Assembly: GCA_964442255.1 (NCBI GenBank)
Contig: CAYTYC010000004.1
Coordinates: forward strand, 1,416-65,415
Direction of reading: 5' to 3'
Length of the DNA: 64,000 nucleotides
Origin: an uncultured archaeon
Lineage (GTDB): Archaea > Iainarchaeota > Iainarchaeia > Iainarchaeales > 1-14-0-10-31-34
The notes under the pieces are model-generated. The model was given only the letters and a program-made list of their open reading frames with translations. It was not told the origin of the DNA and made no database searches. Below are positions 25,791-41,290 of the stretch, one piece after another. How positions within the stretch are numbered: position 1 is the stretch's first letter; each line of letters opens with the position of its first letter. The translations under genes were made by a program, and so were the position numbers.

Positions 25791-25794
25791 TTTT

Positions 25795-26115
25795 TTATCC
25801 CTGCCTCATTCTTGTCCCAAAACCCCAGATTATCACTGAAAGGAAGCCTATTCCCAGGAGGGTGTATAAAACGTATAGGGAGGAAAAAATATAACCGTAT
25901 TTGAATACCATGAACCATATCAGGATTCCTGAAATTATTAAGGTCAGCGTTCCTGTCCCCAGAAAGCTTCTCACGGTCATGAAAATCGTGAAAATCAGGA
26001 TTAACTTGAACACTATGTCTGCGGGCTTGTATAAGTACATCACCAAAGGAACGAGCAGGGCTATCGCAAGGATTCCCGCGATAATGAACAGAACCACGCT
26101 TGCCTTTTGGTTCAA
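25795..26115 (-). CDS. Small membrane protein (4 TM)
   Basis: 106-aa hydrophobic ORF that overlaps the next gene's start by 4 nt. Confidence 0.45.
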   Translation of the reverse strand: MNQKASVVLFIIAGILAIALLVPLVMYLYKPADIVFKLILIFTIFMTVRSFLGTGTLTLIISGILIWFMVFKYGYIFSSLYVLYTLLGIGFLSVIIWGFGTRMRQG

Positions 26116-26595: not shown

Positions 26596-29500
26596 TTAAT
26601 TGCCGGTGGTAATGCAGCTTCCTTCCCCGAGCCCGAGCTCGAACTGGTTCAGGCTTTTTTTGCCTGCAGGCGCATAATTCAGGAGCGCGGTTTCATTCCA
26701 GTAAAATCCCGCCTCTGTTGCCGTGTCCTCCATGCAAACTTTTCCTTCTTCCACCAATTCAAACAGCTGTTCCAGTGCCTCTATTCCATGGTTTTGCTGG
26801 TTTAACTCCATTCCCTGCAATCCGTTTAAAACCATGAAATCATTTATTGCCGTATCCGGGGAAAAGAATTTAAGTGAAGCAGGCTTCTGCGCCTTTAACT
26901 CCATATTGGTTTCAGTGGGCGTGTAGAGGATTGTTCCAAGGTATTCGGTTCCGGGAAGGCTTACGGGTTCCCAAACCGTTTTGTACGCGTACTGGAAATT
27001 CAGCGTGTCTTTGGATGTTGCCCGTGAATCCGCCTTGTAAACTATTGCCCTTTGCGCAGGAAGCCCCCCAAAATCATAGCACTGCCCAAGCCCTTTCCAG
27101 TAGGTTAAATTGTCCCCGGCACTTTTTCCTTTCCCTGTTTCTTCCACATGGTAGGCCGCGGTCAAGGGCTTTTCGCTTTTTGTTCCCTGCACTTTCATTA
27201 TCACAGGGGTTGCAAGCGACGGGCTGAAAACCATTCTTTTTTTGTTTCCCGCGCCGCTTATTGCAAGCAGTTTTCCCCTTGTATCTGTTTCCGAGTTCAG
27301 GTAAGCCAAATCCTTTTCTGTGGCTGTTTCCAGTTCAACTGAAGCCATTTCGGCCGGCTGCCTGGTTAAGGGCTCTGTTGAAACAATGTCCCTTGTTTTG
27401 CTTAACTGCACTTCTTCACCTGTGTAAGCGGTTCCATAGCCTATCCTGTCCTCATCTAAATACCCTAACCTGCCGTTGAAGGGGAGGTAGTAGAATATGC
27501 TGTTCGGGGAGGGCTTTTGCAGGCGCTGGAATTCCACTGAAACCGTTGCTTTTGGGTTTCCATCGGCAGTGAAAAGCGCCCAGTCGTCCGCGTAATCTAT
27601 TCCGATGTCCACGGCGTACAGCCCTGCGTCAGGCAGTTCGTATTCATCAAAGTACCTGTTCCTGAAGCTGAACCTTGTCCTGTCATTATAGTATGCACCT
27701 ATTTCCTGCATTGCCTCTGTTCCGACAGCGTCATCAAGTTCAAGTGAAGGAACCTGGAAAAAAGTGCTTGTGGAATAGTATTTCACGAAATCCTTCTGGA
27801 AGTCGGCGGAATACCCGTCCCTGATCAAATATGCCTTGAAGTGCATCAGGTCGTGCATTTCTTGGAGTACCTGTTTTATTTTCTCGGAATCCGTTGAAAC
27901 GCTTTGCCCGCCAAATTTCACGCTTTCCTGGTTAACCAATTCTCCCAAGGTTGGATCAAGGGCGTTCAGGTAAACGTTTAAGGGCTCAAGGTCGTTGAAA
28001 AAAACTGTGCTGGGCTCTATCCAGCAGTTTAGGCTGGCGCTTGAGGAGTTGTTCATTAAACTGAATTCAAAGTACTTGTCGTCCTGTTTGTCCCCTTCCG
28101 CAGTGAGGTGCTCCAGCTGTATCGAGCCGGTGTAAGGGGTTTCGCTTTCCGGAAGTTCTTCAAACCTGCAGCTTGCGGATGCCGTTGCCCCGTTTTTTCC
28201 TATTCCTGTTAATTTCTTTTCGCATTCCGTTTCCCCGTTGTATAGGTATTCAGCTTCTTCCGGAACATTTAGCCTGAACAAAACATTCACGTCCTGAGCC
28301 TCCCCTGTGTTGTTTTTTACCGTTGCGCTCAAAAGCGCGTCACCGCTTTCGCCCAGGGAATTCCCTATCTCGCTTATTCCGATTTTTTCTTCCGGAACGG
28401 AATGGCTTTTGGCTTCCGCGTTTTGTTTTGCGGCTTCACTTTCCCCCGGCAGGTCTGGGCAGGCAAAATCGTATCCGTTTTCTTTCATGAAATCATTTAA
28501 TTTCGCGATTCTTTTCCACATCATTATGCTGAACTGTGTTGCGTCGCAGTAAATTGCTTCCTCATTCCCGGAATCGCATTCATTCCATGCAATTGCCTTG
28601 TCTTCAAACCCCCAGTCCAGCTTTATTTTTGGCGTTATGCCTTCCCCTGTCCTGCCTTTGATTGTTCCGTCACCGGAAGCGCAGGCAAACTGGTTTTGCT
28701 CCAGTTCCGGCAGCTTTTGTTCTTCTACCCGGGTTATAAACCTTAAATGGAATTTTTGCGTTACCTGAAGCAGGCCAAGGTCTTTCACGTCAAACATTGA
28801 GAACTTTGCGTCCGGGTTTTTTCCGTAGCTTGTCGGGTCCGCGTGAATGTGCCTTCTTGCCTTAACAGTTAAAACGTCATAGGCCGGCTCCTTTTGGCCG
28901 AGGGAAATGTTCCTGAAAATCAGCCCAACCGTTTCTTCGCCTGGCGTCTCGGAAATTTCAGGAAGGGTTTCATCCCAGTTCGGCTCCACGTCAAGCACGT
29001 TTTTTCCGTGTTCGCTTAGGCTTAGCCCGTTCCAGTCCCTGGGAATGCCGTCTCCTCCAATGCCCCGCCCGCTGAGGTTTATTGTGTAATCCCCTAATTC
29101 GTTTGTTTCCGTTTCTTTGCAGGGGTCGCTGAGCCAGGCGATTATTTCAGGGATAAAAGAGGCGCCAATGCAGGCAATTCCCCACGGGCCGACACAGAAA
29201 CCCAGCCCAATTGCGCCAAATGCCTTTGCGGCAAAGCCGGCGACAGCCACCGAATATGCCGCTGCCACGTTTCCCGCAGCCACAACCCCCGCGTGTGCGG
29301 CGGTCCATTTTGCGAGTTTTCCCGTGTTTTTCTTTCTTGCCTCATCCCATGCGCACACGCTTGCCTTCACATTAACGGTTGTGAACACGTCACTGTTCAC
29401 AAGCGTTACCGCGTCCTTTGACTCGCCTTTAAGAAGCACATATTCGTAGTTGTTTGGGTTCACCAGCGAAAACGGCTCCTTGTCTTCCGGGTCAACCAGC

Positions 29501-32500
29501 ACGTCAAGCGTTCCCAATTCAACCCAAAACGGGTTTTTTTCCGTGCGGGCCTCCACTTTTACCCCATAGATTCCGGGCACTGTGCCTCTGCTTACGGTTA
29601 CTTCAGCCGAACCGTCCTTGCTTAAGGTTATTTGTGGTGCCCCGAACCTCCCTATTTGGGGGCTTAGGCTTATCCCCCCTTCCGTTGTCCCGCCCCTGCA
29701 GCCGGGGTCATTGTGGCAGAAAATTACGTCAACCCTGGTTTTGCATTCATTGACCACGGAAAAGCTGTCGTAATGTTCGCCTGAATCCACCTTTACCGGG
29801 TTGTTGAACCCTTCCCCGATTTTCAGGCATTCCCTCAAATTTATTGCCCCAAGGTTTGCTGTAAGGGCGTTGCTGTAAACTGTGGAAAGCCCTGAATCCG
29901 TTAAAGCCTCGGCCTGCACTGTTACCTCAAAGTGCGCCTCTTTGGTGTCCTGTTCGGGGGTGAAAATCAGTGTTCCCACGTACTCCGCATCTGCCTCCAC
30001 CGAATTAAAAAAGTAAGCCGGGCGCATTTCCTGCAGTTCGTTTGTAAGGGATTTCCCGTTTTCAATCTTCAATTGTATTGTTCCGTTCGGCGTTCCTGAA
30101 GTCCAGCGTATTCTTGCGCTTAGGTTGCGGAGCGCAAGGGGCGTGTGCGTGTTTTTTTCCAGACACCCGTTGGTTATGTAGAAGTTATGTGTTATTGTTT
30201 CACTTTCTTCAATCAACTCCTCCCAGCTTGCCCCGTCAATCCCCAAACAATCATTGTTTTCCAGTTCCGCGCCTGTTCCAATGTTTGCGTTAAACCCGAC
30301 ATCAAAGCTCCAGTCAAATGTTCCGTCAGTAACCACAATATTGTACACTCCGTTCACTGACCCTGTTTCCTCTTCAGGAAGGCCTTGGTTAATTGCCGCA
30401 TAAAACTGTATCGGCGGGTCCGCAAGGCTTTTTTTGGGAATAAGCTTTCCGATGAAGCCGCTTGCCTCAATGAACCTGTTCATGCCCTGCAAGTCCAAAT
30501 AATACCCGAGATAGCTCCTTGGAAACTTTTTTCCGATGAATTCAATTTCCTTTATCGTTAGGTTGCGGTTGATTTGGTTGAATAATTCAATGTTTTCCCT
30601 GTGGCTTTTTTTCCCGAACTTTTCCAATGAAAAGCTGAGGGTTTTCGGGCTTACATCCAGAATGTTTGCGTCAACCCTTATTAGGGTTTCCGCGGGCTCA
30701 AACCCGAATTTTCGTGTCGTAAAGTAAAGCCTTGCCCCGGGGCGCATCTCCTGCGTTAACGTGAAAACGGCCTTTCCGTAATTGTCTGTCTCCAGCTCCC
30801 CGCGCTGGCCCATCAGCGCGCTCCTGTATCCGTCGATTTCCTTGTCCACGTAAACATTCGCGAACCTTACAGGAAACCCGTCTTCATCCAGCACAGTCAC
30901 CCTTATTCCCGGCCTTGTGAAGGAAAAAATCTGCGCAGGCTCAACCTGCACTTCCATTTCCTGCATTGAATCAACATCTATTTCCGCGTAATGCCCAAAC
31001 CTTTCCTCCGCTCCCATGTCTGTGAGCTCAAAAATCTTTAATGCAATCGGAACATTTCCCGAGGGAAGGAGGGCCTTGAATTTGAGCGTACCGGTTATTT
31101 TTTTTCCCTTTGAAAAATTCCCTAACTCAATTCTAGGCAGCTTATTGGTTTCATTTATTGGATTCAGTGAGCTTTTTATTGTTCTCCCGCTTGCGTTTGT
31201 CAGGGTGTACTCCAAAAACTCCAGCGCATTCAGTTCTTTCCCTGTTTTGCTTGAATTGGAAACATAAATTTTTGCGTTTTCGTAAACTTTTTCGCCGTCA
31301 TTCAGCACCTCAAACCTGTACTCATATTCCCCGTTCACTGTTGCATTAAAATTGTCTTCCGTGAAAATGTACGGCTCTTCATTCAGGTCCTTTAACCCTT
31401 CAAATGTTACGCACACGCCTTCCTGCCTGTCCGGGCTGCAGACTGGCTCTGCAGCCGGGCCGTCCACGGGAATCTCCGGCTCATCCCCTCCGCCTTCCCC
31501 GCCTTGCGGAGCGCGGACCTCAAACTCCTCGTCAAATGTTAAGGCATACAAAGGCTGTTTTCCCGCAATCCCTTCATCTTCCGGTTCCCTGTCAAGGGCC
31601 TTGTTTTCTTTTTCCCCCCACGCACGGTAATGGAAGCTTATTTTGTCCCCTGCCTCCAAACCCTCTTTTATCCTGAATTCCACCGCAATTTCGTATTCCC
31701 CTGCCTCGGCCGGAATCCAGGTAATGTTAACCCATTTTGCGTTTGAATTCGTTAAATTGTCCAATGCCAGGTCCAGGGCTTCCCCGTCAGGCGGATGATA
31801 GGAGGAACCCATAACCGAAAAGTTTCTTCCCCCCGCACTGTATCCTGTGATAAGGAGATTGTCGTTTTCAACCCTCTCCGAATCGCCTGTCCGGAAATGC
31901 ACTCCAGCCTTCCTGTAACCCGAATTTTCGGGAATGCGGAGCTTCAATACCGCCCTATACTTTTCCCCTGCGCGCAGGGAATTCACCCTGTTTTCCCCGG
32001 AATAAAACTTTATTCCTTTCTCCAGCCCGAGCTTTTGCCCCGGAACTTTCTTCAATTCCAGTTTTATGTTGATGTTGTGTGTGTAGTTGGGCTTCAGGTA
32101 GTATTCTTTGCTTATTCCTGTCTCGTAATCCTTGTGCGTTGCCTTGACGTAAATGCTTTTTCCGGCCGGAAGGCTTAACGCAATCTTCCCTTCAGGGAGC
32201 GTATGGGTTTCCTTTTCCCCTGACTTGAATACAGCCTCTATTTTTGCTCCTTTAATTGTTTCCCCGAATTCGTTTTCCACGCGAATGTTCACGTTTGCGT
32301 TGTCCATTTCCATTTTCACAAGATAGGCGACAATTGAATCCTCCTGCACACTCTTCACCGCACTTTCCCCCCTGTAAAAGCCTTTTTCCGCGTACGCGTA
32401 ATAATTCCCGGATTCAACCGCCTCAAAGACCGCAACCCCGTCCGCGTTTGTGTCTTCAGGATGGTTTCCGGAAATTCTTCCGCTTTCAACTGTCCTTCCG

Positions 32501-33957
32501 TCCTCGTACTTCAGCCAAATTTTTGTCCCCTGCACCCCTTCACCTGACTCTTTTTCCCTTGCCTCAACAACAATTACCCCTTTTTTGTGCCTCACAGGAA
32601 CAAACGGTTCATCTGGTGCAGGAGGGCAATCGGGAATCCTCTCTAATTCAACCACCCGGTTTCCGTCCGAAAAGAAAATGTTTTCCATGAAAGGGTAAAA
32701 GCATTCCGCGGAAACACTTAACTCGAGTTCTTCTTCCGGAACAACGAATTCCACGTCTCTTCCCGTGTTGCGCGTGTTTTTTGTCCCAAGGTTTTTTCCG
32801 CTTTCCGCGCCCTTCAGCAAAACCAAGGCATTTATGACCCTTTCCCCTGAATCAATGTCAAGGACAGTTATTTTCAGTATTCCCGCAACGCTTTCATGCC
32901 CTTCCGGTGGGCCGTCTGCAGGCTCTCCTCCCGTGCCGTCCCCGCCTTCGGGCGGAACAAAAGCCTTTTCCAGAACAATTCTTTTTGACTTTTCGTCCCT
33001 TGCCCCGAGGTAGATTCCTTTAACCTCTTTCTGCACGTACTCTAAGTCAGGATCGCTTACCACTACATCGTATTCCCCGGGGTCGAGCCCAAAAACAGCT
33101 GTGCCAATTGAATCAGTCCAGCCTTCCCCAATTTTTGTCCCGTACTTGAATACTTCCACAAGCATTCCCTGGAGTGCAGCGCCCTCAAAATCTTCTGCCT
33201 CAATGTAAAGCTTTCCACTTAAATCCGGATCGTTTCCATTCAACGGCTTCAGCAGAATGTCTTTCGGGTTTCCGTTTACCACAGTGCGGGAATTGAATGA
33301 CTCATATCCCGCAATTTCCGCTTTTTCCACAACCAGTGTTCCGCAGCCTTCCGGAACCTCCGCCAAAATTTTTCCGTCGTAATCCGTGTCCCTTAATACT
33401 GGTTCATCCAGTTCTTTCCCTGAACTGCATGAAACGTAAACGGTTATGCTTTTTCCTTTTATGAGCCGCGAGTCCCCCGAGTCCTTGAACTGCAATAAAA
33501 CCTGCGTTGACTGCGGTTTAATCAGCCGCAGCCTTACCTCAAATTCATGGTCCTCCAGAACAGCGTATTCTTTTTTGAAGCCCTCAAAATTTTCTGTTCC
33601 CCTTATTTCCAGGGAAATTTTTGTTCCCGGCTTGGCGTAAACGGTTGCGGTGCCGTTTTTCCCTGTCTCTTTAACTGTTTCCTGCCCGTCAATTTCCAGC
33701 CTTAATTCTATTCCCCTTAACGGGCTGTCAGCCTGGTCAACCACCTTAAAGGTCGCAATTGCCTCCAATGGCTGGATTTCCGAAGGAAAAAGGAATAAGA
33801 TTCCAAGCCCCGCAAGGGCAATAATCGCTGCAATAAATAGAACAAGCGACGGAATTACCCTGTCTATGGGGTCTATTACCTTGTATACCGGCACTTTGGC
33901 GTTTATTTTGTCCAGTAACGCGTACCATTTGTCCTCTAAGGAGGAATAAAAGCCCAT
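26596..33957 (-). CDS. Giant surface protein 1 (2453 aa): conserved cytoplasmic N-module, one TM helix, many CarboxypepD_reg/Ig-like repeats, and a C-terminal head homologous to that of giant 2
   Basis: N-terminus MGFYSSLEDKWYALLDKINAKVPVYKVIDPIDRVIPSLVLF plus TM. Repeated V.V.D..G.PL.G..V.L...G beta-sandwich modules. A Gly/Ala-rich hydrophobic segment sits at ~29140-29300. The C-terminal block carries YCDATQFS, YLIRDGYSADFQKDF and YYLPFNGRLGYLDEDRIGYG. Confidence 0.85.
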   Translation of the reverse strand: MGFYSSLEDKWYALLDKINAKVPVYKVIDPIDRVIPSLVLFIAAIIALAGLGILFLFPSEIQPLEAIATFKVVDQADSPLRGIELRLEIDGQETVKETGKNGTATVYAKPGTKISLEIRGTENFEGFKKEYAVLEDHEFEVRLRLIKPQSTQVLLQFKDSGDSRLIKGKSITVYVSCSSGKELDEPVLRDTDYDGKILAEVPEGCGTLVVEKAEIAGYESFNSRTVVNGNPKDILLKPLNGNDPDLSGKLYIEAEDFEGAALQGMLVEVFKYGTKIGEGWTDSIGTAVFGLDPGEYDVVVSDPDLEYVQKEVKGIYLGARDEKSKRIVLEKAFVPPEGGDGTGGEPADGPPEGHESVAGILKITVLDIDSGERVINALVLLKGAESGKNLGTKNTRNTGRDVEFVVPEEELELSVSAECFYPFMENIFFSDGNRVVELERIPDCPPAPDEPFVPVRHKKGVIVVEAREKESGEGVQGTKIWLKYEDGRTVESGRISGNHPEDTNADGVAVFEAVESGNYYAYAEKGFYRGESAVKSVQEDSIVAYLVKMEMDNANVNIRVENEFGETIKGAKIEAVFKSGEKETHTLPEGKIALSLPAGKSIYVKATHKDYETGISKEYYLKPNYTHNINIKLELKKVPGQKLGLEKGIKFYSGENRVNSLRAGEKYRAVLKLRIPENSGYRKAGVHFRTGDSERVENDNLLITGYSAGGRNFSVMGSSYHPPDGEALDLALDNLTNSNAKWVNITWIPAEAGEYEIAVEFRIKEGLEAGDKISFHYRAWGEKENKALDREPEDEGIAGKQPLYALTFDEEFEVRAPQGGEGGGDEPEIPVDGPAAEPVCSPDRQEGVCVTFEGLKDLNEEPYIFTEDNFNATVNGEYEYRFEVLNDGEKVYENAKIYVSNSSKTGKELNALEFLEYTLTNASGRTIKSSLNPINETNKLPRIELGNFSKGKKITGTLKFKALLPSGNVPIALKIFELTDMGAEERFGHYAEIDVDSMQEMEVQVEPAQIFSFTRPGIRVTVLDEDGFPVRFANVYVDKEIDGYRSALMGQRGELETDNYGKAVFTLTQEMRPGARLYFTTRKFGFEPAETLIRVDANILDVSPKTLSFSLEKFGKKSHRENIELFNQINRNLTIKEIEFIGKKFPRSYLGYYLDLQGMNRFIEASGFIGKLIPKKSLADPPIQFYAAINQGLPEEETGSVNGVYNIVVTDGTFDWSFDVGFNANIGTGAELENNDCLGIDGASWEELIEESETITHNFYITNGCLEKNTHTPLALRNLSARIRWTSGTPNGTIQLKIENGKSLTNELQEMRPAYFFNSVEADAEYVGTLIFTPEQDTKEAHFEVTVQAEALTDSGLSTVYSNALTANLGAINLRECLKIGEGFNNPVKVDSGEHYDSFSVVNECKTRVDVIFCHNDPGCRGGTTEGGISLSPQIGRFGAPQITLSKDGSAEVTVSRGTVPGIYGVKVEARTEKNPFWVELGTLDVLVDPEDKEPFSLVNPNNYEYVLLKGESKDAVTLVNSDVFTTVNVKASVCAWDEARKKNTGKLAKWTAAHAGVVAAGNVAAAYSVAVAGFAAKAFGAIGLGFCVGPWGIACIGASFIPEIIAWLSDPCKETETNELGDYTINLSGRGIGGDGIPRDWNGLSLSEHGKNVLDVEPNWDETLPEISETPGEETVGLIFRNISLGQKEPAYDVLTVKARRHIHADPTSYGKNPDAKFSMFDVKDLGLLQVTQKFHLRFITRVEEQKLPELEQNQFACASGDGTIKGRTGEGITPKIKLDWGFEDKAIAWNECDSGNEEAIYCDATQFSIMMWKRIAKLNDFMKENGYDFACPDLPGESEAAKQNAEAKSHSVPEEKIGISEIGNSLGESGDALLSATVKNNTGEAQDVNVLFRLNVPEEAEYLYNGETECEKKLTGIGKNGATASASCRFEELPESETPYTGSIQLEHLTAEGDKQDDKYFEFSLMNNSSSASLNCWIEPSTVFFNDLEPLNVYLNALDPTLGELVNQESVKFGGQSVSTDSEKIKQVLQEMHDLMHFKAYLIRDGYSADFQKDFVKYYSTSTFFQVPSLELDDAVGTEAMQEIGAYYNDRTRFSFRNRYFDEYELPDAGLYAVDIGIDYADDWALFTADGNPKATVSVEFQRLQKPSPNSIFYYLPFNGRLGYLDEDRIGYGTAYTGEEVQLSKTRDIVSTEPLTRQPAEMASVELETATEKDLAYLNSETDTRGKLLAISGAGNKKRMVFSPSLATPVIMKVQGTKSEKPLTAAYHVEETGKGKSAGDNLTYWKGLGQCYDFGGLPAQRAIVYKADSRATSKDTLNFQYAYKTVWEPVSLPGTEYLGTILYTPTETNMELKAQKPASLKFFSPDTAINDFMVLNGLQGMELNQQNHGIEALEQLFELVEEGKVCMEDTATEAGFYWNETALLNYAPAGKKSLNQFELGLGEGSCITTGN

Positions 33958-33985: not shown

Positions 33986-36900
33986 TTATTGAATACAGGT
34001 TTCTTCTATATTAAGCTTTTGTATCACCGGTTCAAGGGGTTCCGCAACCGTTTCAGGATTCCACCAGAATTCCGCCAGCACTTCACTTTTCGTGTCAGTC
34101 AGGCACACCTTTTCCTGTTCCATTAAGTCAAACAGGTCTTCAACTGTCTTGACTTCATCTGACCTGAAGCCTGAAAGCGTTGTCGCGCCTGTAATATTTT
34201 CCTCCACGGCTGTGTGGAATTTCAGGGTTCCGCTTTTTCTTGCAACACTTAATTTTGAAACCGCTTCCTGCGGGGTGAAGAAAATGGTTTGCATGAACAC
34301 TTTCCCGTACTTCACCGGGTCATTCCAATGGAAACCGTATTCGTACAAGTCGCGTGAAAGAGGGGTGGAGCTTCCATGGGTGTCGGGAACCTCAAACAAG
34401 TCGTTTGGCGCATCGCCGAAATCCCTGCACGCGTTTTCCCCTTCCGGAAGGCCAACCCATTTTGTTAAGCCGTTGTCTCCCAGGTTTTGCGCTTCCCCGT
34501 CAACTGTTGCGGTGTAGAAAGCGTAAACTGACTCTGTTCCCGTGTCCTCTATTTCCATTACAACCGAGGTTGCCTTGGACGGCGAAAAGTCCATTGAAGT
34601 CAGTTCATCGTTGTTTCTTTTTACTTCCAGTATTACTCCCCTTTTATCCATGTTTAAAGCCTTAAGCGAGTCCTCCACCTTTGTTTCCAGCGTGTGCACT
34701 TGGGCCTGCCCCTGCGCGCTTGATGTATGCACAACATCCCCTGTGTTGTTTATGTTTATTTCTTCTCCGCTGAAATTCACTCCATAACCTATCCTGTCGT
34801 TGTCCATTCCAATCCTTCCGTTGAATGGAAGGTAATAGAACGGGGAGGGAGGCCATGCGTCCGCCTTCTGGTTCAGGTGAACCGTTATTTTCGCGTTCGG
34901 CTGCCCGCCAACAAACAGGGTGTAGCTTTCGTCGTTGAAGCTGATTTCAATTTCCACTTCATACAGGCCGGGCTTCCTTATTGGGGCGTTTACGCTCAGC
35001 ATTTTTGCCGCGTAATCGAATTCAAACAGGCTTGGGTTGTTGAAGTATGCCCCCAATCCTTCGTTTCCCATGTAGAATTCCGGCGCCTCAAAGAATGCGG
35101 AGGTTGTCGCGTATGAATGGAAGTCTTTCTGGAAGTCTGCGGAATAGCCGTCCCTTATAAGGTATGCGTTGAATTTGTACAACTGCCTTGCCTTTTCCTT
35201 TTGAATCGGGTCCAAAACTTCCCCTGATTTTTCCATTTCCTCAAAGAATTTCGGCAAAGTCAGCGTGGAATAAGCGCCGCATATTGCCCCGCTTGGGCAG
35301 TACGCCCCCATTGTTTCCAGCACCCCGTTTTCTCCAACGAGTTTATTGATTTTTTTCAGTATTTCCGTGCTTAACTGTGTTGCGTCGCAGTAAATGTAGT
35401 CCTCGTTTCCTTCATCGCACCGGTAGTCGCCGGTTTCCGCGTTATGCAAATCCCAGCGCCAGTCAAACTTTACCCTTGGAACAGCGTTTGCCCCTGTGCT
35501 TCCTGTCTTGTTTCCGAGCCTGCATTCCCCGTAGCCCTGGCCGTGGACCGGAATGTCGCTTTCATCATATGAAAGGAACTCCAGATTAAAGTATTTGTCA
35601 ACTTTTTCTGTCCTGTCCACAAGCCTGTTTGCAAATTCATCCAGCCTGTTTTCTGCAGACATTTCCTCAAAGTCTTCCAGGTCGTCTTCATCCAGTTTTG
35701 CGTTGTCCTTGTGCTTGTAGAAGAACTGGGTTCCCGTGACTTCCAGAACCCTGAACAAAGGCCTTAACGGGTCTTCTTGCTTAAGGTTTCCTGTGTTAAT
35801 GAATTTTAACTCTATTTCTTCAAATGTTTCCCCGCCTTCCACCGTGTTTTCCCCCACAAAAGAGGCTTTTGTGTCCCCGCGTTCTACTGTGATCCCGTCT
35901 TCCACTATTTTTTCCGGCAAAACCTGCTTGAATAACTCCCATTCATCCTGTATTTCCACATCCGCCTGCAGTGAATTAATTATCACCGGTTCCTGGTTAA
36001 TGTAATTAATTACTGTATTGGTTGCAAACCCGATTATCCCTGTCCATATTGGCCCCAAACCGGTGCTAAACCCTGGAAGCGCCCCAAGAATGTTTCCAAC
36101 CAACGGAATCCCTGAAAGCAGTTCAGTGACAAACATTCCGGTCGGCTGAACCGTGGCGGAAACCAGTCCTGTTGGTTGTGGGGATTCTTTTGGTGCAACA
36201 CCGCTTTCCGGAGGGCTTTCACCCGATTCAGTTTCTTCGCTGCCACTGTCTCCGCCACTTATGGCGGCTCCTTCTTCCGTGCTTTTGGTGTCAGGCGACC
36301 CTGTTGAAGTTTCCCCTGTTGTCGTGCTTGTAGTTGAACTTGTTCCACCTGGAGGCCCGTGCTTGTCTGGATCTGTTTCACCCACGGTTAGACCTAAGTT
36401 TGGGTTGGTTAGGGATGGATTGCTTTCTGGAATTTCCGGAAGGTCTAGGTTAATCGGCGTTCTACCACGTGAGTCTGGCTCCACAACTTTTTCCTTGCCA
36501 TTCTTGCCTAAGTCTGCTTCCCTGGGTTTTTTTGTTCCATTCAATTTGTTTTGAATGAAGTCCGTGGCAATGTGCACCCCGACTCCAATCAGTGTCGGGA
36601 TTATTGCGTCTTTCATTGCTTTCCAGATGCTTTTAACGTCAAACTCCAGTTCAACTTCTTTTGAATGGCAGTAATTCTGGACTGTAAGCGTGTCATAACC
36701 GTCGTACATTACATCCGGGTCGTCGTAAATGTCCAAAAAGTATTTGCTTAGCCTGATGCAGCCAATTCCCTCCAGCTCCGCGTCAATTCTCTGGATTTCC
36801 CTTCCGCTCACCTCCCCCGCGCCTGTAACTTTCACGTAAATCGGGTAAAGCCCCGGAAACTTGCCTGAATCATGGAAAACCGTTACCTCCTGTTCGCCTG

Positions 36901-39900
36901 TCGCGGGCAGTTTCACTTCCTGCCGGCTTAAATGCAGCGGGCTTTCAAACTCAAACCTTGTTTCTCCCCCGCATTCCTTTGTTTTCACAAGGAAAGAGTC
37001 TGTTCCTTCCACCGGAATCTTCAAATAATTCTTTGAAACGGACACGCAGTCAAGGATGTTGTTTACGGTAATGCTGGTTGAAAGGAAGTCTTCAACCCAT
37101 TCATCTTCCCCTTCCACTTCATTTCTTGCCCTGAAGTCAACCCTTGCCTTTGCCGTGCCCTGCATTCCGCCAAGGGGAGTGAACTCCAAAAAGCCCACGA
37201 TTTTTGCTTCCGGTTCAATCCTTCCCACAAGCTTCCTGTAATAATTGTTCCTTAACTCCATTGGCGTATCTGCGGCCGTGAAACTGAAAACGCCTATCTG
37301 GTTGCTTTCCCATTCAACTTTTGCCTCCAAATCCTGAATCATCACAGGCCTTCCGTCAACCGTGCAGTTGTTTTGAACCTCAAGGCTTAAGGTTATCGGG
37401 TCTCCCTCTGTCCTGCCGCTCCATGCGTTCTGCGTAACATTCAGGCAGCCCGGCTCATCCACTTCCCCGCCTATTCCCACTGAAACAATTAACGGAATTT
37501 CAAACACCCATTCCGATTCATTCGAGCCAAGCCTTACTTCAACCTGCCCTTTCATCTGGAACCTGTTGGAGAGGGTTCTGCCCTCGTTTGAAAGCATTAC
37601 CCCGACTTCAAATTCCTTGCTGTCCCCGCTCCTTAAAATTCCGCCCGCGTAATTTCTTTCCAGCGAATTATTCATTGTCTCCGTGTCCAGGATTCCGCGG
37701 AAGTTTCCCGTCACCCCAATGCTTCTTACTTCCAAGTCAAACTGCACCAAGCTCTCCAATTCAAGCAATTCAATTGACGAAGGCTTTTTCGCCGTGTTCA
37801 GGGAGGAACTCATTTTTTTCGGCGAAAAGGACACGATGTTTCCGTCCACCCACACGCTGTGCTCTACCGGATTAAAGCCCTGTTTTTCTGCCTTTATTTT
37901 CAGCCTTGCGCCCGGTTCCTGTGGGGGAATAACCAAATCAATGTTTCCCCTGTCCGGGAGTTGGCTGGAAGTAAAGCCTTCATCCAGAATGGTGCCGAAT
38001 TTGTCCATTGCCTTTACGAACACGTCTCCTTCTTCCAGGCCTGTTTCAAGGTCTTTCACTTCCACGGTGATTGTTTCCTTTATTCCTGAGGCAATTGTTT
38101 CCGGCTCAACATTTATCCCCAAATTTTTTGCCGCGTCAATCTCAATCCAGTTTTCATTGAAGTAAACGACTTTTCCTCCTTCCCCGCGCTGTTCAACCAA
38201 CCTTATCCTTAACCCTGTTTCAACCGGATTTAGTGTGGTAAAGGTTAATGAGCCGCTGATGCTTTTGTTTGGGCTGAAGTCAGGCAATTCAATCAACGGT
38301 AGCCGGGATTTTTTTTCCGCGTTTCCCCTTACCGGCTGGTTGTTGGGTTTGGTGATTGAGTATTCCCCGAAGCCCAAATCTTCCCCGGGGTTGTCTATGC
38401 GGAGCGTGGCGTTTGTGTAAATTCTTTCCCTTTCATTGTTCACCAAACTGAAAACAAATTTGTATTCTTTCAGCAGTTCCGCGTTGTAGGGCTCTTCCCC
38501 CACGTCTTCCGTCAAACGCTCGCCCAAATCAATTATTGTCGCGTTAAAGCAAAACCTGTCATCGCAGAGAGTGTCGCCTTCCCCGATTGAATAGATTTTT
38601 TCTTTTGCCTGCGCGTACAGTTCCTCTTCCACAACCCCCGGCGCGGGGTCCCTTACAGTCTTTCCGCCTGTTTTTCCCCATGCCCTGTAATACAGGTTCA
38701 CCGTGTCTGAGAGTGAGGCAAAGTCTTTTACCTGGATTTTTATTTTCGCGAAGTAAGTCCCCTCTGTCACTCCCCTGCCGGCGTTTGTCCAAACAATGTT
38801 CGCCCACTTCGCATCCTCGCTTGTCACGCTCCTTAAATCTTCTTCAACGTTGTTTCCCGTGTACTTAGTGAAAAGCATTACCTTGTCCGCGGTGGAGTTA
38901 ACTGTCTTGATTTTCACCACATCGTTTTCCATGTACGCCTCTTTTCCTGCGCGGAAATGCAGCCCGATTTCATCGAATGACTGGTTTTCCGGAACCTTTA
39001 ACTTGAATTCCGCGTAATAGCTTTCGCCCGGCGCAAGCACGTCTTCCACAACCCTGTCGTCTATTGTAAGCCCCAAAAACTCCATTACAATTTTGTCTTC
39101 TGTTGCAACAACAAGCCTGTCCAGTATTATTTCCCTTCCTTCCAGGCTGTTTGGAATTACCCCGATTTTTTCTCCCCGGTAGGTCGCGTATCCGTCCATT
39201 GTCACCTTGAAGTAAACCGTTTTTCCCGCCTTTGTTGTGTACAGGGAAACGCCTTCCGCGTTTGTCGGCACGGTTTCCAGCTCCGAATCATCAGCTGAAT
39301 CATAGAAAGTCACAAAAGCGTTCGCGATTGCCTCGCCTTCCTTGTCTTTTACCTTAACCCTTATTGCGCCTTCAGGCAAAACCATTGCCACAACCAGTTC
39401 AAAGTCTTCCGCAATCCTTCCCGTAAAGTATCCTTTGTCGCTCCACCCGTGCAGGTTTCCGTATGAGGCGTATGCCATGTAGGTGCCGTCCTGTATTCCC
39501 TTGAATGTCACGTAGCCGTTTGAATCGGCGTCAACCCTTTGCCTTTTTGCGGTCACCGGCTTTTGTTCCTCGTCAAACAAACTCACCAATGCGCCTATGA
39601 CAGGCTTTCCTGTGCCTTCATCTATTACCCTTACCTTTAAATCCGCGCCGTTCACGCGCGGAATGTACCTTGTCAGCTTGAGCACGTAAATTCCGTCGGA
39701 AACCTTGAACGGCCAGTCATCGTAAATCAGGTAATCCTCGTGTTCAACCTTTACCCCGTATTCCCTGCCGGTGTCTTCAACCAAAAACTTTACTTTTGCA
39801 AGCTTGTCTTTTTCTGTTGTGCGCTGGTCTATCAGCGCTCCCGCATCATTGTACAGGCTGACTAATGCGCCGTCAATCGGCTTGTTTATGCCGGTTTCCT

Positions 39901-41290
39901 GCACCTGCATTGTAATGTATCCTGAGCCTGGCCCGATAATGCAGTCCGGGTCATCCCCATCAACATAACCGTCCAAATCATCATCAACGCCGTTGTCGCA
40001 GATTTCTGTTCCCCCAACACAATCCGGGTCATCCAGGTCAATGTAGCCGTCGCCGTCATCGTCTTCGCCGTTGTCGCATATTTCTGTTTCATCTTCCGGG
40101 CAGTCCTCCCAGTCGTCAAAGTCCGTGTAGCCGTCTCCGTCGTCGTCCAAGCCGTTTCCGCATATTTCTATGCCCCGGCAGTCCTCGTCATCCAAATCCG
40201 TGTACCCGTCTTCGTCGTCGTCTATTCCGTTGTCGCAGATTGTCTCCTTGTCGGGCGTGTTTCCCGGGTCTTTGGCAGTGCGCATGTAAATTGTTTCAGT
40301 GGCTGTCTGCTCCGCCCTCACAACAACCTGCACAAGCTCCGGCAAATAGGCTGGAGTGTCCTCCGGGTCTGTGACGCTCACGTAATAGCTTCCCGCCGGA
40401 ATGCCGTCAAACACGTATTCCCCGTACATCGTGTAGCCGAACCTTCCTGTTGAAAGGTAAACGCTTTCCATGAGTTCAACTTTCAGCCCGTCAATTTCTT
40501 CCCCTTCGTAAACAGCCCTTACCACCAGTTTTCCTGATGATTCTTCCGGGGCGTCTGCCTGCAGTTCAATTATTTCCGGGTCTCCCCTTGCGGAATGTGA
40601 AAGCACGGGGTTAAATCCTGCTCCTTCCACGCTTACGAGAAGCGTTCCGCAGTCTTTTGGCTCCGATACAATGGTTTTTCCGGTGTAAACTGTCGTCCTT
40701 TCGGGGGCAGGGCTTGCCCCTGCTTTGGTGCACTGGAACCTTAAAATAAGTTCTTCGCCTGAAAGCAGTTTTCCTGTTTCCTTGTCAACCAATTGGATTG
40801 TTCTTCTTATTGGCGCGTCTTTGCCTTCTTCTGTTTTAAGCGTTATTTCCACAGGCAGTTCCATGTCCGGGGAAATGAAAATCGTTCGGGCGAGTTTTTC
40901 GTATCCTTTGTGCTCTATGCTCAAGTCAATTAATGCGCCTTCGTTTGCTTCCAGTTCCGGGCTTAATCCTAAGGCATTTGTTTTTCCCGCTTCAAGCGTT
41001 GTTCCGTCCGCGCTTAAATTGAGTTCAACTCCTGAAAGCGGGGTGTTCGTGCTTTTGTCCAGCACCTTGAGCTGGAATGAAACCTTTTGCGGGGAAATTA
41101 TTTCCGGGAACGCCAGAAAAGTTATTCCAAGGAATAGCAGCAAAACAATTATTATGAGGAAAAGCAGGAAAGAGGGAATTACTTTGTCTATTTTGTCCAC
41201 GAGCCGGTATACTGGTATTTTTTCGTTTATTTTGTCGAGAAAATTGTACCATTTTTCTTCCAAGCCGTAGTAGGCTTCCTTTAGGCCCAT
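33986..41290 (-). CDS. Giant surface protein 2 (2434 aa): the same N-module plus TM, CarboxypepD_reg-like repeats, four tandem Asp-rich Ca-binding repeats, a Ser/Thr linker, and a C-terminal head paralogous to giant 1
   Basis: N-terminus MGLKEAYYGLEEKWYNFLDKINEKIPVYRLVDKIDKVIPSFLLF. Four tandem (E)ICDNGxDDDxDGYxDxDDxDC repeats. A TSSTTSTTTGETSTGSPDTKSTEE linker is followed by a hydrophobic Gly-rich segment. The C-terminal head carries YIYCDATQLS and YLIRDGYSADFQKDF. Confidence 0.85.
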   Translation of the reverse strand: MGLKEAYYGLEEKWYNFLDKINEKIPVYRLVDKIDKVIPSFLLFLIIIVLLLFLGITFLAFPEIISPQKVSFQLKVLDKSTNTPLSGVELNLSADGTTLEAGKTNALGLSPELEANEGALIDLSIEHKGYEKLARTIFISPDMELPVEITLKTEEGKDAPIRRTIQLVDKETGKLLSGEELILRFQCTKAGASPAPERTTVYTGKTIVSEPKDCGTLLVSVEGAGFNPVLSHSARGDPEIIELQADAPEESSGKLVVRAVYEGEEIDGLKVELMESVYLSTGRFGYTMYGEYVFDGIPAGSYYVSVTDPEDTPAYLPELVQVVVRAEQTATETIYMRTAKDPGNTPDKETICDNGIDDDEDGYTDLDDEDCRGIEICGNGLDDDGDGYTDFDDWEDCPEDETEICDNGEDDDGDGYIDLDDPDCVGGTEICDNGVDDDLDGYVDGDDPDCIIGPGSGYITMQVQETGINKPIDGALVSLYNDAGALIDQRTTEKDKLAKVKFLVEDTGREYGVKVEHEDYLIYDDWPFKVSDGIYVLKLTRYIPRVNGADLKVRVIDEGTGKPVIGALVSLFDEEQKPVTAKRQRVDADSNGYVTFKGIQDGTYMAYASYGNLHGWSDKGYFTGRIAEDFELVVAMVLPEGAIRVKVKDKEGEAIANAFVTFYDSADDSELETVPTNAEGVSLYTTKAGKTVYFKVTMDGYATYRGEKIGVIPNSLEGREIILDRLVVATEDKIVMEFLGLTIDDRVVEDVLAPGESYYAEFKLKVPENQSFDEIGLHFRAGKEAYMENDVVKIKTVNSTADKVMLFTKYTGNNVEEDLRSVTSEDAKWANIVWTNAGRGVTEGTYFAKIKIQVKDFASLSDTVNLYYRAWGKTGGKTVRDPAPGVVEEELYAQAKEKIYSIGEGDTLCDDRFCFNATIIDLGERLTEDVGEEPYNAELLKEYKFVFSLVNNERERIYTNATLRIDNPGEDLGFGEYSITKPNNQPVRGNAEKKSRLPLIELPDFSPNKSISGSLTFTTLNPVETGLRIRLVEQRGEGGKVVYFNENWIEIDAAKNLGINVEPETIASGIKETITVEVKDLETGLEEGDVFVKAMDKFGTILDEGFTSSQLPDRGNIDLVIPPQEPGARLKIKAEKQGFNPVEHSVWVDGNIVSFSPKKMSSSLNTAKKPSSIELLELESLVQFDLEVRSIGVTGNFRGILDTETMNNSLERNYAGGILRSGDSKEFEVGVMLSNEGRTLSNRFQMKGQVEVRLGSNESEWVFEIPLIVSVGIGGEVDEPGCLNVTQNAWSGRTEGDPITLSLEVQNNCTVDGRPVMIQDLEAKVEWESNQIGVFSFTAADTPMELRNNYYRKLVGRIEPEAKIVGFLEFTPLGGMQGTAKARVDFRARNEVEGEDEWVEDFLSTSITVNNILDCVSVSKNYLKIPVEGTDSFLVKTKECGGETRFEFESPLHLSRQEVKLPATGEQEVTVFHDSGKFPGLYPIYVKVTGAGEVSGREIQRIDAELEGIGCIRLSKYFLDIYDDPDVMYDGYDTLTVQNYCHSKEVELEFDVKSIWKAMKDAIIPTLIGVGVHIATDFIQNKLNGTKKPREADLGKNGKEKVVEPDSRGRTPINLDLPEIPESNPSLTNPNLGLTVGETDPDKHGPPGGTSSTTSTTTGETSTGSPDTKSTEEGAAISGGDSGSEETESGESPPESGVAPKESPQPTGLVSATVQPTGMFVTELLSGIPLVGNILGALPGFSTGLGPIWTGIIGFATNTVINYINQEPVIINSLQADVEIQDEWELFKQVLPEKIVEDGITVERGDTKASFVGENTVEGGETFEEIELKFINTGNLKQEDPLRPLFRVLEVTGTQFFYKHKDNAKLDEDDLEDFEEMSAENRLDEFANRLVDRTEKVDKYFNLEFLSYDESDIPVHGQGYGECRLGNKTGSTGANAVPRVKFDWRWDLHNAETGDYRCDEGNEDYIYCDATQLSTEILKKINKLVGENGVLETMGAYCPSGAICGAYSTLTLPKFFEEMEKSGEVLDPIQKEKARQLYKFNAYLIRDGYSADFQKDFHSYATTSAFFEAPEFYMGNEGLGAYFNNPSLFEFDYAAKMLSVNAPIRKPGLYEVEIEISFNDESYTLFVGGQPNAKITVHLNQKADAWPPSPFYYLPFNGRIGMDNDRIGYGVNFSGEEININNTGDVVHTSSAQGQAQVHTLETKVEDSLKALNMDKRGVILEVKRNNDELTSMDFSPSKATSVVMEIEDTGTESVYAFYTATVDGEAQNLGDNGLTKWVGLPEGENACRDFGDAPNDLFEVPDTHGSSTPLSRDLYEYGFHWNDPVKYGKVFMQTIFFTPQEAVSKLSVARKSGTLKFHTAVEENITGATTLSGFRSDEVKTVEDLFDLMEQEKVCLTDTKSEVLAEFWWNPETVAEPLEPVIQKLNIEETCIQ

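What the first reader, a model, noticed from the sequence alone, without database searches (positions are those of the whole stretch)
33750..33957. Conserved ~40-aa cytoplasmic N-terminal module shared by all four giant proteins
The four N-termini, at 33957, 41290, 49336 and 59529, read MGFYSSLEDKWYALLDKINAKVPVYKVIDPIDRVIPSLVLF, MGLKEAYYGLEEKWYNFLDKINEKIPVYRLVDKIDKVIPSFLLF, MGLKDFYRGLEDKYYGLMDALDKKGIPVFKLIDVFESRNIPSFPLF and (L)ISGKLAEVYAKIEDKFYAGMDFLDDKGLPVYKIVDLFENRGIPFFPVF. The consensus is GL+..Y.GLEDK(W/Y)Y..LD.I..K.IPV(Y/F)K.(V/I)D......IPSF.LF followed by a TM helix. It is too long and too conserved to be a signal peptide. It reads like a dedicated membrane-anchor and docking module, for example for a common export or assembly partner.
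Basis: seen in the sequence. Interest (0 to 1): 0.75.

Follow-up and report, generated by a model that had tools for sequence, protein, structure and literature searches.

The report
Conserved anchor module of archaeal giants
All four giant surface proteins in this window begin with the same ~40-residue segment followed by a membrane helix; this is an undescribed protein domain found on more than a thousand giant proteins of one group of tiny uncultured archaea (Iainarchaeota), and it most likely pins them to the cell membrane from the inside.

Summary
Four minus-strand ORFs of 2434-2731 aa start with one shared 37-45-aa module, then an uncharged stretch of 21-27 aa. The module is 38-65% identical between paralogues, against 25-32% for the ectodomains. 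The coding DNA differs at many synonymous sites, so this is selection, not recent duplication or gene conversion.

The module matches nothing in Pfam, NCBIfam, PHROGs or PDB. A profile finds 1031 protein clusters (605 at E<=1e-10), always at the N-terminus and mostly in 1200-3250-aa proteins. A DNA pattern gave 120/120 true hits, in genomes almost all labelled Iainarchaeum/Diapherotrites or only 'archaeon'.

AlphaFold (pLDDT 93.7) gives helix 3-24, helix 28-35, membrane helix 40-60, then a transthyretin-like sandwich.

Best reading: a retained N-in signal anchor whose small acidic cytoplasmic head is a lineage-specific recognition element. Retention is inferred and docking is untested. Five small multi-pass membrane proteins follow the last giant in 5 of 7 loci where that position is visible, and are the best partner candidates. 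The 'FlaI-like ATPase' has a VirB4/HerA-like fold, an apparently degenerate P-loop, and is linked in only one syntenic sub-lineage.

It is a new domain family; in kind it resembles the conserved N-terminal signal extensions of bacterial giant adhesins.

The parts
33847..33957 (-). G1 N-terminal module (aa 1-37, MGFYSSLEDKWYALLDKINAKVPVYKVIDPIDRVIPS)
   Evidence: Translation. Module HMM 83.9 bits.
33781..33846 (-). G1 membrane helix (aa 38-59), directly after the P-S motif
   Evidence: Hydropathy. The equivalent helix in the G2 model has pLDDT >90.
41171..41290 (-). G2 N-terminal module (aa 1-40)
   Evidence: HMM 88.0 bits. AF2 gives helices 3-24 and 28-35.
41105..41170 (-). G2 membrane helix (aa 41-62)
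   Evidence: AF2 helix 40-60.
49211..49336 (-). G3 N-terminal module (aa 1-42, variant with a one-residue insertion, KKGIPVF)
   Evidence: HMM 74.8 bits.
49130..49210 (-). G3 membrane helix (aa 43-69)
59395..59529 (-). G4 N-terminal module (aa 1-45, TTG start; most divergent copy, P-F instead of P-S)
   Evidence: HMM 64.1 bits.
59332..59394 (-). G4 membrane helix (aa 46-66)
26596..33957 (-). Giant G1 (2453 aa): module, TM, transthyretin/CarboxypepD_reg/Ig-like repeats, and a C-terminal domain shared by many family members
   Evidence: The C-terminal 260 aa recur in 72 ORFs of 59 loci.
33986..41290 (-). Giant G2 (2434 aa)
   Evidence: C-terminal domain shared with G1, E 2.6e-23.
41474..49336 (-). 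Giant G3 (2620 aa)
51334..59529 (-). Giant G4 (2731 aa) with an SLT lytic-transglycosylase domain near the C-terminus (aa 2551-2601, nt 51727-51879)
   Evidence: Pfam PF01464, E 5.9e-12.
49444..51318 (-). 624-aa protein with a type IV pilin-like (class III) N-terminus, MKEKAFTLFTALVAF..., lying between G4 and G3. Homologues hold the same position in other giant arrays.
   Evidence: (ComGF N-terminus, weak).
24836..26483 (-). Cassette of five small membrane proteins directly downstream of G1; s1-s4 multi-pass, s5 one long hydrophobic N-terminal stretch and a soluble tail (simple hydropathy scan): s1 26112-26483, s2 25795-26115, s3 25539-25790, s4 25214-25609, s5 24836-25213. These are the candidate membrane partners.
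   Evidence: Hydropathy. s1-s4 recur in the same order after the last giant in L001, L007, L128 and L129; s5 was detected only in L001 and L007.
22496..23995 (-). 499-aa protein with a VirB4/HerA-like fold. Its P-loop looks degenerate by eye (GIFGENPEDRKH where GxxGxGK[ST] is expected). Linked to the giants only in the PolB-syntenic sub-lineage.

Best explanation
The segment is a real, previously uncatalogued protein domain. It is the N-terminal 'head' of a family of giant surface proteins found mainly in genomes labelled Iainarchaeota (Diapherotrites, DPANN archaea).

Anatomy:
- An amphipathic helix of about 22 residues, with one conserved face (Y6, E10, W/Y13, Y14, L17, D18).
- A proline-flanked short helix (P25-V-Y27-K-V-I-D31-P-I-D34).
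- An invariant P38-S39-F40 junction.
- A membrane helix of about 24 residues.
- About 8 residues later, the first of many transthyretin/Ig-like beta-sandwich domains.

Proposed mechanism:
1. The hydrophobic helix acts as an uncleaved Sec signal anchor, so the ~2400-aa ectodomain is threaded out co-translationally.
2. The small acidic head stays in the cytoplasm, fixes the N-in orientation and remains the protein's only membrane tether.
3. Because the head is conserved far beyond what a generic tether needs, it also serves as a common recognition or docking surface. This would let all paralogues of an array be handled by one partner. The partner is most plausibly the five small multi-pass membrane proteins encoded right after the last giant, possibly together with the VirB4/HerA-like protein where present.

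Status of each step:
- Shown: the domain exists, its conservation, its N-terminal position, its lineage distribution and the operon association.
- Inferred: topology, retention rather than cleavage, and docking.

My confidence by layer: real lineage-specific domain about 0.95; retained N-in anchor about 0.65; specific docking function about 0.4.
For: Conservation and spread:
- The module is 38-65% identical between paralogues, against 25-32% for the ectodomain.
- Synonymous differences in the coding DNA exclude conversion.
- 1031 clusters at E<=1e-3 and 605 at E<=1e-10. In 149 of the best 152 the module starts within 34 residues of the annotated N-terminus; the other three annotated starts lie 50-71 residues upstream.
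- Column conservation across 152 members: Y6 99%, E10 99%, D18 100%, Y27 94%, P38 100%, S39 95%.
- 120/120 DNA-pattern hits in species-representative genomes carry the module. Of the titles naming a phylum-level group, nearly all say Iainarchaeum/Diapherotrites/ainarchaeum; many say only 'archaeon'. They include the complete genomes CP010424.1 and CP064981.1. There are none in viral contigs.

Structure:
- AF2 on a 53-sequence alignment gives pLDDT 93.7, with H3-24, H28-35 and TM H40-60, then a beta-sandwich.

Topology and retention:
- Uncharged stretch of median 24 aa.
- K+R 2.0 on the N-flank against 0.8 on the C-flank.
- No RR motif among 152 members; no Cys near the membrane segment of the four window copies.
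- No C-terminal TM or sorting signal on the four window giants, so the N-terminal helix is their only evident anchor.

Partner:
- The s1-s4(+s5) cassette follows the last giant in the window, L001, L007, L128 and L129. L128 has different flanking genes.
- A further multi-TM family (p148) lies just upstream of module-bearing genes in 25 loci.
- Tandem arrays are common: 32 of 100 assessable genes are directly preceded by another member's C-terminus.
Against: - There is no experimental or co-evolutionary evidence for any contact between the module and the small membrane proteins or the ATPase-like protein.
- Two loci (L003, L005) have giants with no cassette nearby. L003 belongs to the same genome as L007, which does have one.
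- The module's net charge is negative (about -1.7), which is unusual for a cytoplasmic flank.
- Cleavage after the hydrophobic helix cannot be excluded without a signal-peptidase predictor or proteomics.
- The membrane helix itself is only generically hydrophobic, so any partner contact would have to be cytoplasmic or interfacial.
- The AF2 monomer gives no information on oligomers or partners.
Confidence: 0.55

Rival explanations
1. Cleaved extended leader. Module plus hydrophobic helix would form an unusually long export signal, analogous to ESPR or YSIRK signal peptides. It would be removed after translocation, and the mature giant would be released or held at the surface through its conserved C-terminal domain or the pilin-like protein.
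For: - Giant bacterial surface proteins typically carry conserved extensions in their signal peptides (established knowledge: ESPR, YSIRK-G/S, KxYKxGKxW).
- The giants also share a conserved C-terminal ~260-aa domain that could mediate attachment.
- A pilin-like protein is embedded in the arrays.
Against: - The hydrophobic stretch has a median of 24 uncharged residues, which is TM-like rather than an H-region of 7-15 residues.
- I saw no conserved motif after the helix when reading the N-termini; composition there was not tabulated.
- The first beta-sandwich starts only about 8 residues after the helix.
- The N-region is acidic rather than basic.
- There is no homology to ESPR or YSIRK models.
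Confidence: 0.2
2. Oligomerisation nucleus. The amphipathic 3-4-spaced helix 1 of several giants, whether the same or different paralogues, would bundle at the cytoplasmic face. The array's products would then assemble into one multi-chain stalk or fibre, with no separate partner needed.
For: - Hydrophobic positions at 3, 7, 10, 14, 17/18 and 21, read by eye from the G2 sequence, give a heptad-like stripe.
- The hydrophobic moment is 0.37, against 0.19 for shuffles (p about 0.04).
- All paralogues of an array keep the same head while their ectodomains diverge.
- Arrays of 2-4 giants are common.
Against: - Solitary giants exist (L005).
- The conserved face mixes aromatic and acidic residues and is followed by a proline-rich turn, which is unlike canonical coiled coils.
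- No multimer prediction was possible with these tools.
Confidence: 0.15
3. Type IV pilin-like (class III) signal. A prepilin-type peptidase would cut at the cytoplasmic face next to P-S-F, and the hydrophobic helix would then drive assembly into a filament.
For: - The conserved motif sits exactly at the cytoplasmic boundary of the helix.
- A genuine class III-type protein is encoded inside the arrays.
Against: - The leader is about 40 aa and highly structured, whereas class III leaders are short and basic.
- Positions -2/-1 are P-S rather than [KR]-[GA].
- There is no pilin-like conserved residue pattern in the helix.
- No pilin-family Pfam or NCBIfam hit.
Confidence: 0.05
4. Trivial explanation: the similarity reflects recent tandem duplication or gene conversion, or a nucleotide-level signal in the 5' coding region, rather than a protein domain.
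For: The genes are tandem paralogues.
Against: - The module is 38-65% identical, against 25-32% elsewhere.
- The DNA is only about 66% identical, with many synonymous changes.
- The same module occurs in more than 1000 clusters at 50% identity across many genomes.
Confidence: 0.01

Closest known systems
ESPR, the extended signal peptide region of autotransporters, TpsA proteins and trimeric autotransporter adhesins (Pfam PF13018)
   Same: A conserved N-terminal extension preceding the hydrophobic core of the export signal, found specifically on very large surface proteins.
   Different: ESPR is bacterial, basic and about 25 aa long. It is part of a cleaved Sec signal peptide with a short H-region. 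Here the extension is about 40 aa, acidic and helical, and is followed by a TM-length helix. There is no sequence match.
YSIRK-G/S and KxYKxGKxW signal-peptide motifs of Gram-positive giant surface proteins
   Same: A lineage-specific conserved motif in the N-terminal signal of large repetitive adhesins, thought to direct a particular secretion route or site.
   Different: Those motifs are short, lie in the n-region of a cleaved signal peptide, and the proteins are anchored C-terminally (LPXTG). The giants here have no C-terminal anchor and no model match.
SPEARE proteins of Nanohaloarchaeota (Hamm et al. 2019, PMC6642349)
   Same: DPANN giant proteins with a single TM helix, a mostly extracytoplasmic adhesion-domain body, an enzymatic 'weapon' domain, and the cytoplasmic portion as the most conserved part.
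   Different: SPEARE proteins are mostly C-terminally anchored, with a large cytoplasmic restriction-enzyme-like domain. Here the anchor is N-terminal and the cytoplasmic part is a 40-aa helical head. The families are unrelated by sequence, and the lineage here is Iainarchaeota.
Archaeal class III (type IV pilin-like) signal peptides
   Same: A conserved motif at the cytoplasmic boundary of an N-terminal hydrophobic helix. A bona fide example (624-aa protein, KA|FTLFTALVA) is encoded in the same array.
   Different: The leader length (40 aa against fewer than 15), its charge and the -2/-1 residues (P-S against [KR]-[GA]) do not fit.
N-terminal retention module of RTX/type I-secreted giant adhesins (LapA, MpIBP)
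   Same: A small conserved N-terminal module that keeps a giant Ig-repeat adhesin tethered to the cell through the envelope machinery.
   Different: The RTX retention module is a folded periplasmic plug in an outer-membrane channel, and secretion is C-terminus first. Here a membrane helix does the tethering, in an archaeon presumed to have a single membrane. The comparison rests on my own knowledge and was not tested.

Membership tests
Sec-type cleaved signal peptide (including ESPR, YSIRK, KxYKxGKxW variants) | Match to the family models (PF13018 ESPR, PF04650/TIGR01168 YSIRK, TIGR03715 KxYKxGKxW) | tested here: not met
   hmmscan of the four N-termini against Pfam-A and NCBIfam at E<=10 gave no such family. 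Whole-protein scans show nothing at residues 1-60.
Sec-type cleaved signal peptide (including ESPR, YSIRK, KxYKxGKxW variants) | Basic n-region, short H-region (about 7-15 aa) and a conserved small-residue cleavage site | tested here: not met
   Net charge of the module is about -1.7. The uncharged stretch has a median of 24 aa. I saw no conserved motif after it on reading the N-termini (not tabulated). No dedicated predictor such as SignalP was available, so cleavage is not formally excluded.
Twin-arginine (Tat) signal | RR-x-[FLIV] motif before the hydrophobic region | tested here: not met
   0 of 152 family members carry it.
Lipoprotein signal | Lipobox with an invariant Cys after the hydrophobic region | tested here: not met
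   No Cys near the end of the hydrophobic stretch in the four window copies; I noticed no conserved Cys in the 152 N-termini, but did not tabulate it.
Archaeal class III / type IV pilin signal | Short charged leader ending in [KR]-[GA] immediately before the hydrophobic helix | tested here: not met
   The leader is 37-45 aa and the junction is V-[VI]-P-S-F (P 100%, S 95%). There are no pilin model hits.
Archaeosortase/exosortase substrates (PGF-CTERM, PEF-CTERM and similar) | C-terminal motif + TM helix + basic tail | tested here: not met
   None of the four giants has a C-terminal TM. The adjacent archaeosortase-family gene (60340-60915, TIGR04178 E 1e-9) has no homologue in any other fetched giant locus, although most of these cover only 8 kb.
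Type II (N-in) signal-anchor membrane protein | A single N-proximal TM-length hydrophobic helix, more K/R on the N-side flank, and no other anchor | tested here: met
   TM of 21-27 aa. K+R 2.0 against 0.8. No further strong TM segments. AF2 helix 40-60 at pLDDT >90. Actual topology and retention are not testable with these tools.
SPEARE-type DPANN giant proteins | Sequence homology to SPEARE, with a cytoplasmic type III restriction-enzyme-like domain | tested here: not met
   No restriction-enzyme, laminin-G or serine-protease domains appear in the Pfam scans of the four giants. The cytoplasmic part is only about 40 aa. The resemblance is one of architecture only.
New family proposed here (Iainarchaeota giant-protein N-terminal module) | G-L-K-x-x-Y-x-x-L-E-D-K-[WY]-Y-x-x-L-D ... 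P-[VI]-Y-K-[IV]-[IV]-D-P-I-[DE] ... P-S-F, followed by a TM helix, at the extreme N-terminus | tested here: met
   All four window giants score 64-88 bits with the family HMM. The family has 605 clusters at E<=1e-10.

The most novel reading that the evidence does not exclude
The module would be the address tag of an undescribed archaeal surface-organelle system. On this reading, arrays of N-anchored giant proteins are recruited through their common cytoplasmic head by a dedicated membrane platform. The first giant in an array carries peptidoglycan-degrading domains at its distal end: SLT here, and NlpC/P60 + amidase + glucosaminidase in a relative. The platform would comprise the five small multi-pass proteins, the p148 family, a pilin-like protein and, in some lineages, a VirB4/HerA-like pseudo-ATPase. 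Together they would build a long host-attack or attachment structure with which Iainarchaeota engage bacteria rather than archaea.
Probability: 0.25. Interest if true: 0.85.

Novelty: new variant of a known kind. Interest (0 to 1): 0.62.

Why it matters
Iainarchaeota have no cultured member, and whether they depend on hosts is debated.

- **A diagnostic marker.** A single motif tags the lineage's largest genes, which take up about 30 kb of this 64-kb window. That gives a specific handle for finding them (120/120 specificity with one DNA pattern), for annotating them beyond 'carboxypeptidase regulatory-like domain protein', and for asking how an archaeon without SecA exports and holds 250-300-kDa ectodomains.

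- **A conserved locus.** The module leads straight to a recurring gene arrangement that has not, as far as I could find, been described. It contains giants, one of them tipped with peptidoglycan hydrolases, plus a pilin-like protein and a fixed cassette of small membrane proteins. If the head is a docking tag, this would be a new archaeal surface-assembly pathway. It would also be evidence that a DPANN lineage targets bacteria.

- **If it is only a tether.** It still remains a clean new domain family worth a Pfam entry.

Tried and rejected
- **Family libraries.** Pfam, NCBIfam and PHROGs scans of the isolated N-termini at permissive thresholds gave nothing.
- **Profile against PDB sequences.** Only insignificant PsbK-like hits (E about 0.4) on the 'P..P + hydrophobic helix' part. 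I treat these as noise.
- **Word-indexed protein searches.** They returned only a handful of fragments. The exhaustive HMMER search was needed.
- **The search for related loci with the alignment.** It failed for lack of a sufficiently invariant stretch and was replaced by a hand-made degenerate DNA pattern.
- **Source contig.** The exact look-up for G2 found no gene on record, so the window's own contig was not retrieved.
- **Archaeosortase link.** Considered because of the adjacent gene. Rejected because the giants have no C-terminal signal and no archaeosortase was found in the other fetched loci.
- **FlaI-type ATPase.** Rejected in favour of a VirB4/HerA-like fold.
- **Peptidoglycan-hydrolase tips as a general family feature.** Not so: only G4 among the best 152 members matched the SLT, NlpC, amidase or glucosaminidase queries.
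- **Viral origin.** No pattern hit in viral contigs.
- **Literature.** Six searches, plus text look-ups inside three of the papers found, turned up no description of this module or of Iainarchaeota giant-protein arrays.
Full report

Yes. The window carries four very long minus-strand ORFs:
- G1, 26596-33957, 2453 aa
- G2, 33986-41290, 2434 aa
- G3, 41474-49336, 2620 aa
- G4, 51334-59529, 2731 aa, with a TTG start

In a MAFFT alignment of the four whole proteins, the first 50 columns have 50% mean pairwise identity. The remaining ~3400 columns sit near 22%.

Pairwise global alignments give 38-65% identity for the module, against 25-32% for residues 71-1070. The module-coding DNA is only about 66% identical and differs at many synonymous positions. 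The similarity is therefore kept by selection on the protein, not by recent duplication or gene conversion.

An HMM of the module scores the four ORFs at 64-88 bits and finds nothing else among the ORFs of at least 40 codons in all six frames of the window.

**2. Anatomy**

Each copy consists of 37-45 residues ending in I-P-S (P-F in G4), followed directly by 21-27 uncharged residues. Apart from a weak segment at about residues 2077-2106 of G4, this is the only hydrophobic segment of membrane length in the proteins. None of the four has a C-terminal membrane segment or sorting signal.

AlphaFold2 was run on G2 residues 1-125 with a 53-sequence alignment and gave mean pLDDT 93.7:
- helix 3-24
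- short helix 28-35
- membrane helix 40-60
- from residue ~69, a beta-sandwich

The rest of each giant is a string of CarboxypepD_reg, Big_1, SpaA and MG-type domains.

**3. Distribution**

The module has no match in Pfam-A, NCBIfam or PHROGs, even at E<=10. It has none in PDB sequences beyond insignificant PsbK hits.

A nine-sequence profile was searched exhaustively against 1.84 billion cluster representatives:
- 1031 proteins at E<=1e-3
- 605 at E<=1e-10

In 149 of the best 152 the match starts within 34 residues of the annotated start; in the other three it starts 50-71 residues in. Among those not obviously truncated by contig ends, lengths are mostly 1200-3250 aa.

Column statistics over 152 members show a striking signature: G-L-K-[DE]-x-Y(99%)-[YF]-x-L-E(99%)-D-K-[YW]-Y(92%)-x-[FL]-L-D(100%)-K-[IL]-[DN]-x-K-[IV]-P(92%)-[VI]-Y(94%)-K-[IV]-[IV]-D(90%)-P-I-[DE]-x-x-[VI]-P(100%)-S(95%)-F(84%). 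After that the helix is only generically hydrophobic.

NCBI names the members 'carboxypeptidase regulatory-like domain-containing protein' or 'hypothetical'. The source organisms are given as 'archaeon', Candidatus Diapherotrites or Candidatus Micrarchaeota.

I back-translated the second half of the module into a degenerate DNA pattern and scanned one genome per GTDB species. All 120 stretches encode the module.

Their record titles are overwhelmingly Candidatus Iainarchaeum, Diapherotrites, 'ainarchaeum' or unclassified 'archaeon'. They include two complete genomes, CP010424.1 (GW2011_AR10) and CP064981.1. Four MAGs are labelled Micrarchaeota, one Thaumarchaeota and one Chloroflexi. I take the last two to be binning or labelling noise; this is inference.

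The same pattern has no hit in 2.9 million viral contigs. Iainarchaeota is a DPANN phylum.

**4. Genomic context**

Nine independent loci were compared: the window and L001, L003, L005, L006, L007, L128, L129 and L130.

- *Arrays.* Giants usually come in tandem arrays of 2-4, and every giant in an array carries the module. In species-representative genomes, 32 of 100 assessable module-bearing genes are directly preceded by the conserved C-terminal domain of another member. A further 18 are preceded by a ~150-190-aa multi-TM protein (family 'p148'), which is absent from this window.

- *Small-protein cassette.* Directly downstream of the last giant lies a fixed cassette of small multi-pass membrane proteins. 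The order is s1, s2, s3 (mutually paralogous), s4 and often s5. It occurs in the window (26483-24836), L001, L007, L128 and L129. L128 has the cassette but otherwise different neighbours (ribose-5-phosphate isomerase instead of PolB), so the linkage is not merely inherited synteny. Two loci lack it: L003, whose genome has it at L007, and the solitary giant of L005.

- *Pilin-like protein.* A 470-624-aa protein with a class III (type IV pilin-like) N-terminus ([KR]-A-F-x-[LM]-F-T-A-L-V-A) sits after the first giant in the window, L006 and L129; in L007 a partial homologue lies at the locus edge just upstream of the first visible giant.

- *Enzymatic tips.* In the window and L006 that first giant carries peptidoglycan-degrading domains at its C-terminal end: SLT in G4 (E 5.9e-12), and NlpC/P60 + Amidase_3 + Glucosaminidase in L006. 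In L129 and L007 no such domain was recorded. None of the other best 152 members has them.

**5. How it most likely works**

*Shown.* This is a real, strongly constrained, N-terminal, lineage-specific domain attached to a membrane-length helix. It sits at the front of proteins whose bulk consists of extracellular-type domains.

*Inferred.* N-in topology and retention of the helix as the anchor. The grounds are:
- the K+R bias of 2.0 against 0.8, and a 24-residue uncharged stretch
- no apparent conserved cleavage motif after the helix
- the first sandwich domain only about 8 residues beyond the helix
- no other anchor

A folded head would also block N-terminal translocation, enforcing the type II orientation despite the module's net negative charge. 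This follows from established knowledge of signal-anchor topogenesis.

*The extra conservation.* Helix 1 presents Y6, E10, W/Y13, Y14, L17 and D18 on one face, and the junction P38-S39-F40 is invariant. This exceeds what a tether needs and points to a specific interaction. Candidates are:
- the small-membrane-protein cassette (my preferred partner; its s1 and s5 tails are basic and the module is acidic, but that is only suggestive)
- self-association of the giants
- a processing enzyme

I put the layers at about 0.95 (real domain), 0.65 (retained N-in anchor) and 0.4 (docking tag).

**6. Rivals**

- A cleaved extended leader remains possible (0.2).
- An oligomerisation nucleus is plausible and not exclusive of the main reading (0.15).
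- A pilin-type class III signal fits poorly (0.05).
- The duplication or conversion artefact is refuted.

**7. Comparison with known systems**

In kind, the module resembles the conserved N-terminal signal extensions of giant bacterial surface proteins (ESPR, YSIRK-G/S, KxYKxGKxW). In architecture, the proteins resemble the SPEARE giants of Nanohaloarchaeota, whose cytoplasmic portion is likewise the most conserved part (PMC6642349).

It is a member of none of these. No model matches, the leader is acidic, helical and about 40 aa long, the hydrophobic segment is of TM length, and anchoring is N-terminal. I found no paper describing it.

**8. Verdict**

It is a new domain family, and in kind a new variant of a known type: a conserved N-terminal targeting or anchoring element of giant surface proteins. 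It is a useful marker for an undescribed conserved giant-protein locus in Iainarchaeota. Interest 0.62.

Noticed in passing
window 51727-51879 (G4 aa 2551-2601); L006 1-7978: The first giant of the array ends in a lytic transglycosylase (SLT) domain. The positional counterpart in L006 (3374 aa) ends in NlpC/P60 + Amidase_3 + Glucosaminidase. So these are peptidoglycan-degrading domains at the distal end of N-anchored archaeal giants, which suggests the organism engages bacteria.
   Followed up: partly
window 49444-51318 (-): A 624-aa protein with a type IV pilin-like class III N-terminus (MKEKAFTLFTALVAF). It lies between the first and second giant in the window, L006 and L129; L007 has a partial homologue at the locus edge, just upstream of its first visible giant. 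The rest of the protein has no family match.
   Followed up: partly
window 24836-26483 (-): Five small membrane proteins (s1-s5; s1-s3 are paralogous) with no family match. s1-s4 recur in the same order directly after the last giant in four other loci; s5 was detected in only two of them.
   Followed up: partly
[not shown]
   Followed up: partly
window 60340-60915 (-) and 21960-22466 (-): An exosortase/archaeosortase-family gene (TIGR04178, E 1e-9) lies just upstream of the array, with no homologue in the other fetched loci. The 168-aa protein at 21960-22466 has a signal peptide and a C-terminal PVPEIS + TM + RKK tail that looks like a sortase-type sorting signal.
   Followed up: no
window 59648-60294 (-): A HEPN (E 3e-30) / minimal nucleotidyltransferase (E 5.5e-13) gene pair sits between G4 and the archaeosortase gene. 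Two other giant loci carry toxin-antitoxin-type genes: HicB-like in L001, and MazE/PemK and RHH/DUF3368 pairs in L130.
   Followed up: no
window 41303-41312 and 49349-49358 (-): The exact 10-mer TTCACTCTGC lies 13-22 nt upstream of the ATG of both G2 and G3 and nowhere else exactly in the window. It may be a shared 5'-leader element. Counts with one mismatch are at chance level.
   Followed up: partly
window 26484-26595 (-): The G1-s1 intergenic region contains two copies of the palindrome-containing CCCGCGGGTTAA, followed by an AT-rich TATA-like box. This may be a terminator or attenuator plus a separate promoter for the small-protein cassette.
   Followed up: no
window 26596-27375 (G1 C-terminal 260 aa); also G2 aa 2200-2414: The giants also share a conserved C-terminal domain, recurring in 72 ORFs of 59 loci. 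The family therefore has conserved 'bookends' around a variable repeat body. G4 did not match this domain (phmmer, E<=10) and ends in SLT.
   Followed up: partly
L001, L006, L007, L129, L130 and 20 GTDB loci (e.g. L040, L045): A ~150-190-aa multi-TM protein family ('p148') sits immediately upstream of module-bearing genes in 25 loci. It is absent from this window.
   Followed up: partly
window 10090-11121 (+); L001 23612-27304: A free-standing LAGLIDADG-domain ORF is present in the window. The syntenic PolB in L001 carries an intein with LAGLIDADG, whereas the window's PolB (19027-21471) is intein-free.
   Followed up: no
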